Below, in pieces: positions 1 to 3,000 of a stretch of DNA of 64,000 bases (the stretch's first letter is position 1; the number at the start of each line of letters is the position of its first letter). Source of the stretch: Escherichia coli (lineage in GTDB: Bacteria; Pseudomonadota; Gammaproteobacteria; Enterobacterales; Enterobacteriaceae); assembly GCF_030013595.1 (NCBI RefSeq), contig NZ_CP122768.1; one strand, 5' to 3'. Made by a program: the position numbers.

Positions 1-3000
1 TTTCAAGTTCATTAATTTCTTTGCTGAGAGCTTCTTCTGCAGTCGAACCAAAAACACCAAAAGAATTGTTTGAAGCTTTATAATACTTTTCTTTTAAAAA
101 CGAATTAACATTTCTGATACAGTTTTGTGGGTTGTCAGGCGCAAACTGAGGGAATTCATTGGGGTATTTGTGATTCAGATATTCGGCATAAAACCGACAT
201 TTACGGGGATCTTTGCATTTGATAAGCATCTGTTCGTTATTCATTATCTCACTCCATGGCGCCTCTCTTATAACAAAATCGTCTCAATTTTATTTTGTCA
301 CTAAGTGATTATCAAATGTTTTTGTTGTGATTTGTTTGTGTTTTTAAATGTTTATGTCATGTTATCAGTGTTTTTATATAAAGATACATTGATGTTTTTA
401 TGATGGTAAAAAATCATATTTTCTTTTATATTCATTGAGTTATGCTTGTTTGCTCTGCATTTGGGGGATGACAGAAAAGAATGGGCTGTGTTGATCACAT
501 GCGCCGTATGCGCTGTCCAGGTTACAGGGCACCTCAATATTCAGCGTTTTCCTGTTGACTGGCATTGTTAATATTATGTTTTGGTTTTGTTTTATTGTGT
601 GGTTGTGAATGTTGTGTTTAGTTTGATGGTTGAGAAAGAAAAAAGAAGACTATGATGCACTAATCAGGAAATATTTTCGACGCCGGTTGAGTTAAAAGAA
701 CAGATAGAGTGGACAGGTGTTGTGTTAATAGTTTACGGCTGACAGTATTCTTATTTTAATAACAGGTGTTATTATTTATAGATTTATACAGACGATACTC
801 CCGATAAATAGTCAGGTGATGATGGTCGTTGAGTGGTTTTATAAGCTACGTATAGCTCTGTAAGACTTATTAATTCAACGATGACTACCGTTTATTGATA
901 TACCTGTATTCGGGAAATGTCATAAAAAATGTCACGTTGTTTGCAGAATCTTTTGTTTTTTAGTTTCTGATACGCAATGACTAAGCAGGAGGACTCACTT
1001 TGTTTGTATGCTGACCGTGATCGCCAGTGGAGATGAACAATTGACTCTTACATTGAAAAATATACTCTTTTGTATTTTATCGTTTATCCGCATGAAGTAA
1101 ATAATCTTCAGCAATGTTATTTATGTAAATATTATCATCTCACCCTGAGTGTTCATTTTATCAGTGTGATATTCCATTGTTTACTGATGAAATTAACCGA
1201 TAAGTGATCTTGTTAAGATTGCCAGAACGACAGTTTTTGCTGAGTCCGTGCAATGGAAGATGTGTTATATCATCTATTTAAGCAATAAGTTTAATACAGA
1301 TTTCAGAAGATGTGTTGGTGAGTTGATGACTGATTTTCAGAGGGGTATGGGAAAGTGTATGGGATCCCATAAAGAAAAAATCATTATTGTTCAGTTGACG
1401 TATATTTCCGGGTGATGGCTCCAGTCAGCAGAACATGTGTTTTTCGATGAATGACCCAATAACTTTTTCGTGAATTTCCACGGAGCGTGAAAAGCAAATC
1501 GTTTTCCGGTTCAGCCGTTTGATGCGGGAACGGAGTGTCAGATGGAGGTGCTCAATGCACCGGGTAAATATCAATACGATTTGAGGAACCATTTGCTGGT
1601 TGATCTCTTTCCGATAGCATTGGATGCAGAAATAACCACATCCAATGTAAATAAGCATCAATTGCACAGAAGCAATATACCTGCGACCCTCTCCGGAAAT
1701 TCCAGTATCACTGGCTACGTACCGTTTTCAGCAGAACGAAATGCGGCGAGGGTCATTTGGCGGACTGCCACAGATAGCCGTCCGGTTGTGTGCAACGATG
1801 AGGAAGGAATCCCGGGAGCGTTACGTTATGAATCAACAGGCGTATAACAGATACTCGTCAATCATCAGTTCAAGCTCGCGCTTTTCTCGTTTGCGCGCCA
1901 CAGCCCAGCTTTCAAGCTCTGCGTGTGATTTATGCTTTAACTCTTCAGTCCAGGGCTGCATGGAGTGGGCACACATCAGATCATACCAGCACAGCCATAT
2001 CAGCGTGTGGTAGAGATCGCGATCTTCGAAACGCCGGAGCAGACTGTTCAGCCTGTTTGCCAGCCGGCTTTCGCCCAGACGATGTAGCTCACTGAGTAAA
2101 ACGCCGCCCAGATTAAAATGCGTAAGCAGCATGATTTCATGGGTCTGAATGCTGGTCATTAACCCTTCCTGAATGGCAGGAATGAACGGTGGCGTTCCCG
2201 GGTTGACGACCTGATAGAGTCCCTGTGGTGCCACTGAGATGATGGTGCCTTTTTCCGGTAGAAAAAAGTGGGCCAGGGTCAGGCGGTGATAACCATGAAG
2301 ATGCGGAGAGCCCATTCCATGAGCGACAATAAACCGGGTTACACTTGCCATCCATTTCTGATGCTGAATTAGCAGCAGATCACACCGGTTTTCAAGTTTT
2401 TGCATAATATTCTCTCCTTTAGCACGCAGCAGAATGCCTCCGGAGGCCGGATAGTGTATTCGCTGCGGTTGAACGGATAACGGTCAGGAATTACGGACGG
2501 GATTGTGCAATACGCGCCTGCAACCAGGCTTCCACTTCACTTTTCAGCCATCGGGAGCTGCGGCCGAGTTTGATGGGGGCCGGAAAGGCACCATCTTTGA
2601 TGAGCTTATAAAACCACTTATCGGTTAAGCCGGTCAGTTGAGTGATAAACGCCATGTCGACCATCTGGTCATCCATCAGCGAAACTGGGGTCTTCATGAA
2701 AATGTTCCTCCGGATGTTGTTAATCTCAACCGGCGTTGGTGATGAAAACGACGCACCACCTTCACCGGCATAACAACCGGGGAGAAACGTAAAAAAGTTG
2801 AGGAATATTCCTGCCAGGAGAGAAACTGTTGTGTACAGGCAATACAGGTTGTCTGTTTTGTCAGTGAAGCCGGTATAAACGGAAGATGATTTTGTGTTGC
2901 CGGAATATGGGATGGCGTTTTGCCGTGACGGAATCAGTATTTTCAGTGATGATTATTACTGCGCAGGGGAGTATCGGAGATAAACCACGCCCTGTACCTG

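What the first reader, a model, noticed from the sequence alone, without database searches (positions are those of the whole stretch)
1833..2697. AlpA-like regulator and unknown 190-aa ORF lie ~16 kb from the only integrase
AlpA-family genes usually sit next to the integrase of P4-like elements and satellites. Here the AlpA-like gene and its downstream 190-aa ORF are separated from the pheV integrase by the Rep module, the zinc-ribbon pair, the BREX remnant, an IS and cargo genes. Either this is one large composite island with inserted cargo, or two tandem elements whose second integrase lies beyond the window start. The 190-aa protein has no recognisable family.
Basis: inference. Interest (0 to 1): 0.35.

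Follow-up and report, generated by a model that had tools for sequence, protein, structure and literature searches.

The report
Ordinary pheV island; AlpA plus orphan partner
The AlpA-like gene and its 190-aa neighbour are the regulatory pair of one ordinary E. coli genomic island at the tRNA-Phe (pheV) gene; cargo between them and the integrase is normal for this island family, and only the 190-aa protein remains unexplained.

Summary
alpA is at 2491-2697(-), the 190-aa ORF at 1833-2405(-), and the only integrase at 18822-20087(-), 16.1 kb away beside tRNA-Phe.

The puzzle resolves in favour of one island. Collinear relatives extend 10 kb left of the window through a CP4-57-like backbone to a direct repeat of the tRNA-Phe 3' end beside yghD. 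They show one integrase, two repeat copies and no internal att site. A strain with an identical neighbouring core has an empty pheV site.

In all eight sampled relatives of this alpA/190-aa module, alpA lies 9 to more than 20 kb from int, with cargo between. Published islands and P4 itself also separate them. The arrangement is therefore ordinary.

The 190-aa protein is a real gene (pN/pS 0.07-0.11). It belongs to an Enterobacterales-only family with no Pfam, NCBIfam, PHROG or PADLOC match. Its confident AlphaFold model has no fold relative. It sits downstream of alpA in every lineage where the upstream DNA was available.

AlpA is 98.5% identical between pheV and selC islands whose integrases are only 42% identical, while the 190-aa partner drops to 36%.

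I read the pair as the island's own control module. The partner's function is unknown.

The parts
1..244 (-). First 81 codons of a 339-aa backbone gene of unknown function, cut by the window start
   Evidence: Collinear with L001 19225-20244 and L002 14596-15615, both annotated as hypothetical proteins. The ATG is at 244 with GGAG upstream. A distant homologue shows only weak DotM_C and RepB hints.
250..1420 (.). AT-rich non-coding stretch (31-38% GC) between the 339-aa gene and the IS1 remnant
   Evidence: Composition profile. No ORF is annotated here in relatives. No Rfam family matches. Only weak repeats are present.
1430..1576 (-). IS1 transposase remnant
   Evidence: RefSeq annotation of the collinear relatives, mapped to the window.
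1833..2405 (-). 190-aa protein, an AlpA-linked orphan family (homologues are labelled 'Aec62' in some records)
   Evidence: ORF with RBS. pN/pS 0.07-0.11. No database family. 56 representatives among 1.84 billion proteins and 111 clusters, all Enterobacterales. AF2 pLDDT 85.9 and pTM 0.85, with no fold relative.
2406..2490 (-). 85-nt alpA/190-aa spacer with a conserved GCAGC...GCUGC hairpin and no U-tract
   Evidence: Alignment of seven islands and RNAalifold give 15 pairs, 2 of them with compensatory changes. The single-sequence fold is not better than shuffles, z -0.6.
2491..2697 (-). alpA-like gene, 68 aa, winged-helix excisionase/regulator class
   Evidence: PF05930 at 36.6 bits against cut-off 21. 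PHROG excisionase families. Nearest PDB sequences are 8c3t and TorI 1z4h. It is 93-99% identical across E. coli islands.
2698..2800 (-). About 100 nt of nearly invariant leader upstream of alpA; homology between island types ends beyond it
   Evidence: Alignment A3, columns about 224-325. Megablast between the window and L019 covers only 2426-2826 in this region.
3080..3871 (-). 263-aa YagM-like protein, a variable insert absent from most related islands
   Evidence: 24.5% identity to K-12 YagM, E 6e-14. No tblastn match in L003, L004 or L019-L022 (annotation).
4827..5039 (+). hha homologue
   Evidence: PF05321, E 3e-26; NCBIfam Hha at 104 bits.
5271..5870 (+).
   Evidence: Sub-threshold hits to REP_ORF2-G2P (24.2 against 27.8) and YagK_YfjJ_C (22.1 against 25.8). 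PGAP names it 'inovirus-type Gp2 protein'. It is 34% identical to the gene just upstream of alpA in L005.
6246..7057 (+). Two DUF7828 + Zn_ribbon_11 genes (6246-6635 and 6632-7057)
   Evidence: Pfam. The same family lies between alpA and the 190-aa homologue in Pectobacterium and other lineages.
7322..14689 (-). BREX type 1 remnant: brxL, pglZ and a pglX that has lost its 5' end
   Evidence: Annotation of collinear relatives. The match to the complete system stops at the IS.
14689..15742 (-). IS5-family element that removed the start of pglX, brxC, brxB and brxA (about 8.5 kb compared with NCTC9699)
   Evidence: Synteny map of the window against L002 and L001. ORF at 14749..15717.
16101..18500 (+). 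Cargo: outer membrane protein (16101-16841) and phosphoethanolamine transferase (17001-18500)
   Evidence: 99.4% identical to L002 39941-45191, annotated there.
18822..20087 (-). P4-type tyrosine integrase, the only one in the window
   Evidence: Pfam domains. tblastn finds a single locus; 36% identical to K-12 IntA.
20285..20360 (-). tRNA-Phe (pheV); its 3' 23 nt (20285-20307) are the attL core
   Evidence: ARAGORN and Rfam. There is a single copy in the window. The second copy in relatives lies beside yghD.

Best explanation
The two genes are the regulatory pair of the conserved backbone of one pheV-integrated island. The island belongs to the CP4-57-like class of E. coli tRNA-associated islands.

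Read from pheV, the island is:
- attL and int;
- a cargo slot holding a phosphoethanolamine transferase, an outer membrane protein, IS5 and a truncated BREX system;
- a zinc-ribbon x2 / Gp2-like / hha block on the opposite strand;
- a YagM-like gene, alpA and the 190-aa gene;
- an IS1 scar and the 339-aa gene;
- beyond the window start, in relatives: GTPase, Ag43 or other cargo, DUF932, antirestriction, RadC/JAB, DUF987, YeeU-CbtA, DUF4942 and attR beside yghD.

Shown: the gene identities, the single att pair and single integrase in relatives, the empty site, and the recurrence of this layout.

Inferred: AlpA is a small trans-acting winged-helix protein of the Vis/Rox/Hef/TorI class. It promotes Int-mediated excision, either as a directionality factor at an att arm or by activating transcription. 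Either way its distance from int has no mechanistic cost.

Also inferred: the 190-aa gene is co-transcribed with alpA (85-nt spacer, own RBS). I judge it an accessory factor of the island's own excision, replication or mobilisation control rather than cargo. Confidence in that last step is only about 0.3.
For: One island:
- L001 and L002 are collinear with window 1-12950 at 97-99% identity.
- They continue leftwards through the backbone to TTCGATTCCGAGTCCGG beside yghD.
- L002 holds exactly two copies of that repeat and one integrase over the whole 41 kb.
- The window has no internal copy at up to 3 mismatches and no second integrase.
- Strain HCP5S3_I2, 100.0% identical over window 45-64 kb, has yghD, tRNA-Phe and yqgA adjacent, with nothing between.

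The layout is normal:
- alpA to int is 25 kb in NCTC9699, 9.5 kb in ETEC1706, 8.9 kb in L005, about 20 kb in a selC island, and more than 20 kb in E62, Iso00225, O177:H21 and C10.
- Published precedents: VPI-2 VefA and VefB (PMC3014918); Pseudomonas tmRNA islands with IntY at one end and Gp2-like plus AlpA at the other (PMC12595487); and the P4 gene order (PMC8628076).

AlpA class. The protein carries the FPAP loop that matches the 'FPPP loop' noted for Rox, Vis and AlpA (PMC2603039).

The 190-aa gene is real and linked to alpA:
- pN/pS is 0.07-0.11.
- alpA lies upstream and co-directional in the Escherichia, Salmonella-like, Pectobacterium and metagenomic lineages examined.
- In E. coli the alpA DNA has 6863 places in 3486 genomes. 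That is roughly the sum of the 200-aa allele (6013 places) and the 190-aa allele (1004 genomes).
Against: - The window itself stops inside the island, so its own left end is inferred from relatives. No complete genome in the collection covers more than 89% of window 1-21000.
- No excision, binding or expression data exist for this AlpA.
- AlpA is 98.5% identical between pheV and selC islands whose integrases are 41.8% identical. That fits poorly with a strictly integrase-specific directionality factor.
- Nothing tested here says what the 190-aa protein does.
- In distant relatives the 190-aa gene borders the cargo. It also exists as deeply divergent alleles (36-38% identity). Both features would also suit an arms-race gene.
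Confidence: 0.8

Rival explanations
1. There are two tandem elements at pheV. The alpA/190-aa pair would belong to a second, distal element whose own integrase lies left of the window start.
For: Tandem arrays at tRNA sites are common (general knowledge). IS1 and IS5 scars at 1430-1576 and 14689-15742 show that rearrangement has occurred. The window ends inside the island.
Against: Collinear relatives have no integrase between the window start and yghD, and only two att repeats. The window has no internal att copy or integrase fragment. The same int-cargo-alpA-backbone order recurs at pheV, selC and other sites and in a metagenomic element at 41% protein identity. An empty site shows a clean insertion point.
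Confidence: 0.04
2. AlpA here is mainly a transcription activator or antiterminator of the backbone operon that starts with the 190-aa gene. It would not be an att-binding directionality factor, and excision would be affected only indirectly, as first proposed for K-12 AlpA and intA.
For: AlpA and about 100 nt of leader are almost invariant across islands with unrelated integrases and att sites: 98.5% against 41.8% identity. A conserved hairpin lies between alpA and the next gene. AlpA-RNA polymerase loading complexes exist in the PDB, 7xya and 7xyb (listed). K-12 alpA is annotated as a transcriptional activator. For Rox it is unresolved whether it acts as an RDF or a transcription factor (PMC2603039).
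Against: The hairpin has no U-tract and folds no better than shuffled sequence. The nearest solved relatives include TorI, a true excisionase. The attR-side arm lies in the conserved backbone, so a conserved RDF could still bind there (inference by analogy with lambda Xis). The two roles are not exclusive; P4 Vis has both (PMC2603039).
Confidence: 0.4
3. The 190-aa protein is a cargo-type gene under arms-race diversification, for example an anti-defence or helper-interference factor. It would merely be expressed from the alpA promoter and play no part in island control.
For: It occurs as deeply divergent alleles (36-38% identity) next to a 93-99% conserved alpA. In distant relatives it directly borders defence cargo such as type I R-M and BrxR-GmrSD. 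The backbone carries antirestriction genes.
Against: A family member was found downstream of alpA in every island inspected, whatever the cargo. Counts of alpA and of the two alleles roughly match. Within an allele there is strong purifying selection. There is no PADLOC hit and no homologue in phages or true plasmids.
Confidence: 0.2
4. The pair is an inert relic in a decaying island and no longer has a function.
For: The island is scarred by an IS1 remnant, an IS5 insertion and the loss of half of its BREX system. alpA pseudogenes are frequent in P4-like satellites (PMC8628076).
Against: Both ORFs are intact with ribosome-binding sites. pN/pS is 0.07-0.14. The pair is kept in 1004 complete genomes, and the exact protein is seen on at least 1000 contigs.
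Confidence: 0.08

Closest known systems
CP4-57 cryptic prophage of E. coli K-12 (intA-yfjH-alpA-yfjI-yfjJ ... yfjP-yfjQ ... antirestriction/RadC-like/DUF987/YfjZ-YpjF)
   Same: Both have a P4-type integrase beside an RNA gene. The gene order and orientation match: int, then alpA, then GTPase, DUF932, antirestriction, RadC/JAB, DUF987 and a CbtA-type toxin-antitoxin. Both carry a Gp2/YfjJ-like gene and defence cargo.
   Different: In CP4-57 alpA is 1.2 kb from intA and the cargo lies after yfjJ. Here the cargo slot lies between int and the alpA module. AlpA is only 25% identical and Int 36%. The gene after alpA is YfjI (DUF3987) in K-12 and the unrelated 190-aa family here.
Pseudomonas tmRNA genomic islands I23/I44/I55 (PMC12595487)
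   Same: The integrase is at one end, and a Gp2-like gene followed by alpA is at the other. RadC and defence cargo lie between. The authors treat them as single islands.
   Different: They are in a different genus, at a different att site and with a different backbone. alpA is the terminal gene there, and no 190-aa family member or DUF7828 zinc-ribbon gene is reported.
Island RDFs encoded away from int: Hef (Yersinia HPI), VefA/VefB (Vibrio VPI-2) and Rox (Shigella she PAI at pheV)
   Same: They are small AlpA-like proteins that stimulate Int-mediated excision of tRNA-associated islands. VefA sits mid-island and VefB at the far end (PMC3014918; PMC2603039).
   Different: Sequence relationship to this AlpA was not measured here, and no partner gene like the 190-aa family is described for them.
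P4-like satellites (int, psu, delta, sid, alpA, epsilon, alpha)
   Same: Both have a P4-type integrase at a tRNA gene, an alpA gene not adjacent to int, and cargo hotspots between core genes (PMC8628076).
   Different: None of psu, delta, sid, epsilon or alpha is annotated in the island or its complete relatives. The island is three to four times the 11-kb size of P4.

Membership tests
AlpA family (Pfam PF05930; excisionase/regulator winged helix) | Match to the family HMM above the curated cut-off | tested here: met
   36.6 bits against 21; HTH_17 at 30.1 against 27. PHROG 66, E 7e-10. PDB 8c3t 'AlpA family', E 0.002, and TorI, E 0.006. TIGR01764 'excise' is below its cut-off at 22 against 28.8.
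AlpA family (Pfam PF05930; excisionase/regulator winged helix) | Stimulates excision or int expression of its own element | not testable with these tools
   This needs excision PCR or reporter assays.
CP4-57-like tRNA-associated integrative island | P4-type tyrosine integrase next to the target RNA gene, and direct repeats of its 3' end at both ends | tested here: met
   int at 18822-20087 beside tRNA-Phe. The second repeat lies beside yghD in collinear relatives. An empty site exists. The window's own distal end is not visible.
CP4-57-like tRNA-associated integrative island | Backbone of GTPase, DUF932, antirestriction, RadC/JAB, DUF987 and CbtA-type toxin-antitoxin, co-oriented with int and alpA | tested here: met
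   Present in L001 and L002 directly left of the window start, and in K-12 CP4-57. It lies outside the window itself.
CP4-57-like tRNA-associated integrative island | YagK/YfjJ (Gp2-like) gene | tested here: inconclusive
   Pfam hits fall just below the cut-offs: 22.1 against 25.8 and 24.2 against 27.8. PGAP names it inovirus-type Gp2. It is 34% identical to the L005 gene upstream of alpA.
P4-like phage satellite (SatelliteFinder definition) | Co-localised psu, delta, sid, epsilon and alpha together with int and alpA | tested here: not met
   None of these is annotated across the whole island in L001 or L002, or among the ORFs scanned. Definition from PMC8628076.
PICI (Gram-negative type) | int-proximal alpA regulatory module followed by pri-rep and packaging or capsid-redirecting genes within about 10-15 kb | tested here: not met
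   alpA is 16 kb from int. No primase-replicase or packaging genes are annotated. The defining features are taken from my own knowledge of the family.
BREX type 1 | brxA, brxB, brxC, pglX, pglZ and brxL all intact | tested here: not met
   Only brxL, pglZ and a pglX truncated by IS5 remain. The relatives keep all six genes.
Any described protein family, for the 190-aa protein | Sequence or fold match to a curated family or solved structure | tested here: not met
   [not shown]

The most novel reading that the evidence does not exclude
The 190-aa protein would define a new-fold, Enterobacterales-only family that is an obligate partner of AlpA in the control module of these islands, together with the Gp2-like protein and the DUF7828 zinc-ribbon proteins. 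These islands are present in about 64% of complete E. coli genomes. Its deeply divergent alleles beside an almost invariant, integrase-independent AlpA would mark it as the component that gives each island its individual specificity, for example which helper, origin or signal triggers excision or replication.
Probability: 0.25. Interest if true: 0.45.

Novelty: already known. Interest (0 to 1): 0.2.

Why it matters
The finding as posed is settled. A 16-kb gap between alpA and int is the normal design of this island class, with cargo loaded between the integrase and the regulatory module. It is not evidence of tandem elements.

Two by-products may be useful. First, there is a cheap handle for annotating such islands: the conserved set of Gp2-like gene, alpA, zinc-ribbon genes and the 190/200-aa gene. 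Second, there is a concrete uncharacterised target. The family sits next to alpA at several thousand places in E. coli genomes, including Nissle 1917, and has no known fold. Its deletion phenotype would show how these very common islands are controlled.

Tried and rejected
- Homology of the 190-aa protein to neighbouring K-12 island proteins (YfjI, YfjH, YfjJ, YagJ-N, YkgV): none found.
- Homology to P4 or any other phage gene: a single hit, to an odd 3.6-kb record. 'Plasmid' hits were mostly megabase records, which I take to be mislabelled chromosomes.
- Source names such as 'malate transporter', 'secretoglobin family protein' and 'Aec62' carry no functional evidence. A literature search on 'Aec62' and on the RefSeq accessions found nothing relevant.
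- Promoter and terminator scans around alpA gave no more sites than shuffled sequence.
- Intergenic hairpin as a regulated terminator: it is conserved, but has no U-tract and no energetic signal.
- Iteron or origin search in the AT-rich non-coding stretches: only weak repeats.
- Allele linkage. The 190-aa allele occurs with two barely alignable Gp2-like types (the window against L003 and L004). It occurs with the 339-aa gene or with YfjI, so no fixed partner could be read from the eight islands.
- 'Divergent alleles keep co-resident islands orthogonal': weakened, because genomes commonly carry two or more copies of the same 200-aa allele class.
- PIME integrative mobilisable elements (10.64898/2026.01.12.698999): rejected as the family, because trbJ, trbL and repA are absent.
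- An AlpA/190-aa co-fold was not attempted, because the structure tool returns no interface measure.
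Full report
**1. What is there**

The window is E. coli chromosome. Positions 1-20360 are the pheV-proximal part of a genomic island, and 20.4-64 kb is core genome found in at least 5377 of 5426 complete genomes.

The finding's coordinates are exact.
- alpA is 2491-2697(-), 68 aa. The downstream ORF is 1833-2405(-), 190 aa. Both have good ribosome-binding sites.
- The 68-aa protein passes the Pfam AlpA and HTH_17 cut-offs and matches PHROG excisionase/regulator families.
- Its nearest solved structures are an AlpA-family protein (8c3t) and TorI, the excisionase of K-12 prophage KplE1.
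- The integrase (18822-20087, -) lies beside tRNA-Phe (20285-20360, -), 16.1 kb from alpA. No second P4-type integrase is detectable in the window.
- A synteny map shows the island is the NCTC9699-type island, minus about 8.5 kb removed by an IS5 that cut pglX and deleted brxC, brxB and brxA.

**2. One island or two**

- the rest of the 339-aa gene and a YeeP-type GTPase;
- Ag43, or a dynamin/patatin set;
- DUF932, antirestriction, RadC/JAB and DUF987;
- YeeU-CbtA, DUF5983, DUF957 and DUF4942.

They then reach the sequence TTCGATTCCGAGTCCGG, the 3' end of tRNA-Phe, about 150 bp from yghD.

Over the whole 41-kb NCTC9699 island there is one integrase and exactly two copies of the repeat. The window has no internal copy, even at 3 mismatches.

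Strain HCP5S3_I2 is 100.0% identical to window 45-64 kb. It has yghD, tRNA-Phe and yqgA adjacent, with nothing between. In that empty site the tRNA 3' end sits at the same distance from yghD as the distal repeat does in NCTC9699.

The caveat is that the window's own left flank is unseen, and no complete genome covers more than 89% of window 1-21000.

**3. Is the separation unusual?**

It is not. I inspected eight elements carrying this alpA/190-aa module.

| Element | Site | alpA-to-int distance |
|---|---|---|
| NCTC9699 | pheV | 25 kb |
| ETEC1706 | pheV | 9.5 kb |
| Metagenomic element (L005) | not determined | 8.9 kb |
| EC45 | selC | about 20 kb |
| E62, Iso00225, O177:H21, C10 | pheV or other | more than 20 kb |

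The slot between them holds BREX, type I R-M, CDI, Afa/Dr fimbriae, fec, sugar-utilisation or polysaccharide genes.

In K-12 CP4-57, by contrast, alpA is 1.2 kb from intA and the cargo lies further in.

The literature agrees that separation is common.
- In P4-like satellites the order is int-psu-delta-sid-alpA-epsilon-alpha, with hotspots on both sides (PMC8628076).
- VPI-2 encodes VefA mid-island and VefB at the far end (PMC3014918).
- Pseudomonas tmRNA islands carry IntY at one end and Gp2-like plus AlpA at the other, with defence cargo between (PMC12595487).

A small trans-acting DNA-binding protein has no need to be encoded next to int.

**4. The 190-aa protein**

It is a real gene. Against alleles 4-5% divergent in DNA, pN/pS is 0.07-0.11.

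It has no match in Pfam, NCBIfam, PHROGs, PADLOC or PDB sequences, either alone or as a profile.

An exhaustive HMMER scan of 1.84 billion representatives found only 56 relatives. A profile search of 5.8 billion proteins found 111 clusters. All those that carry an organism name are from Enterobacterales: Escherichia, Salmonella, Klebsiella, Citrobacter, Pectobacterium, Serratia, Yersinia and Kosakonia. Shigella members appear in the cluster look-up. None has a Pfam domain, and the source names are uninformative.

The family is absent from phages, apart from one odd 3.6-kb record, and the few 'plasmid' hits are mostly megabase-sized records.

AlphaFold2 on a 20-sequence alignment gives a confident model with pLDDT 85.9 and pTM 0.85. 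It has a long N-terminal helix, a beta-hairpin, a disordered linker and a seven-helix C-terminal domain. The C-terminal domain carries the conserved GxLLSE(C)xRL and WLCW motifs. Nothing in the PDB or BFVD resembles it beyond generic helical bundles.

**5. Conserved context**

Homologues at 26-42% identity sit in a co-directional set: Gp2/YagK-YfjJ-like, then AlpA, then 0-2 DUF7828 zinc-ribbon genes, then the 190-aa family gene. In one lineage (L012) the zinc-ribbon gene follows the 190-aa homologue instead. The set is usually followed by cargo and then int, with the CbtA-type backbone on the other side. The 72-nt fragment upstream of P0016 encodes an AlpA C-terminus.

In E. coli, the 'alpA-only' DNA hits are followed by a 200-202-aa gene that is a 36-38% identical homologue.

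The counts fit a one-to-one pairing.
- alpA DNA has 6863 places in 3486 genomes.
- The 200-aa allele has 6013 places in 3415 genomes.
- The 190-aa allele is in 1004 genomes.

By inclusion-exclusion, most carriers of the 190-aa allele also carry a 200-aa allele elsewhere. This is an inference.

In the window the four families are all present but split into two blocks. alpA and the 190-aa gene point towards the backbone, as alpA-yfjI does in CP4-57. Gp2-like, ZnR1 and ZnR2 point towards the cargo.

**6. AlpA is uncoupled from the integrase**

AlpA is 98.5% identical between the pheV island and a selC island whose integrases are 41.8% identical and target different tRNAs. The 190-aa partner is 36% identical between the same two islands.

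About 100 nt of leader upstream of alpA is nearly invariant across island types, and homology stops just beyond it.

Across E. coli islands most backbone proteins are 84-99% identical. Three genes occur instead as deeply divergent alleles:
- the 190-aa family, at 36-38%;
- the 339-aa gene, at 22-31% or replaced by YfjI;
- the Gp2-like gene, barely alignable apart from an HxH motif.

This favours AlpA acting on conserved island DNA, either its own promoter and the backbone or the attR-side arm. It argues against a tight pairing with one integrase. It leaves open that the divergent genes carry specificity. No fixed allele partnership could be read from the eight islands inspected.

**7. Mechanism proposed**

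Shown: this is one pheV island with a single att pair in relatives, an AlpA-class gene and a conserved partner gene.

Inferred: AlpA promotes Int-mediated excision in trans, as a directionality factor, a transcriptional activator or both. The 190-aa gene is co-expressed with it and serves the island's own life-cycle control. Confidence is about 0.8 for the architecture and the AlpA class, and about 0.3 for the partner's role.

Rivals are given separately in the report: tandem elements (0.04), AlpA as a pure transcription factor (0.4, not exclusive), the partner as an arms-race cargo gene (0.2) and an inert relic (0.08).

**8. Verdict**

The arrangement is ordinary and already explained by what is known of this island class. 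The exact proteins are present in over a thousand contigs as 'hypothetical'. Interest is low at 0.2. What remains of interest is the uncharacterised AlpA-linked protein family and the mismatch between AlpA and integrase conservation.

Noticed in passing
window 2491-2697 compared with L021/L024 (selC island of strain EC45): AlpA is 98.5% identical between islands whose integrases are only 41.8% identical and use different tRNA sites. The gene just downstream drops to 36% identity.
   Followed up: partly
window 1-244, 1833-2405 and 5271-5870, compared with L003, L004 and L019-L022: In a backbone that is otherwise 84-99% identical, three genes occur as deeply divergent alleles: the 190-aa gene, the 339-aa gene (sometimes replaced by a YfjI/DUF3987 gene) and the Gp2-like gene. 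The alleles are shuffled independently of one another.
   Followed up: partly
window 2406-2490: A conserved GCAGC...GCUGC hairpin with an inner CCGG stem lies between alpA and the 190/200-aa gene in seven islands. It has no U-tract and is not energetically distinctive.
   Followed up: partly
window 4210-4410: Three to four copies of a CTGTAAT-containing 19-mer and an adjacent 20-nt inverted repeat lie in the AT-rich spacer between the YagM-like gene and hha. They could be binding sites or chance matches.
   Followed up: no
window 12950-14210: The middle of the truncated pglX has no megablast match to the pglX of close relatives, although the flanks are 91-98% identical. Variation in the methyltransferase specificity region is a possible explanation, not tested.
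   Followed up: no
L025 (strain HCP5S3_I2) 45184-45407: This pig isolate has a core 100.0% identical to window 45-64 kb and a completely empty pheV site. It is a ready natural attB control.
   Followed up: yes
[not shown]
   Followed up: no
GenBank OR851001.1, 'Salmonella phage S.Kent 1-2-1', 1945-2472: The only 'phage' record with a homologue of the 190-aa protein (32% identity) is an unannotated 3.6-kb sequence. It may be island DNA recovered from particles rather than a phage genome.
   Followed up: no
window 1542-1847 (+): A 101-aa ORF, whose equivalent in relatives RefSeq annotates as a shorter hypothetical protein (WP_000453440.1), overlaps the IS1 remnant and the 3' end of the 190-aa gene. 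It has no family hit and is probably not a gene.
   Followed up: partly
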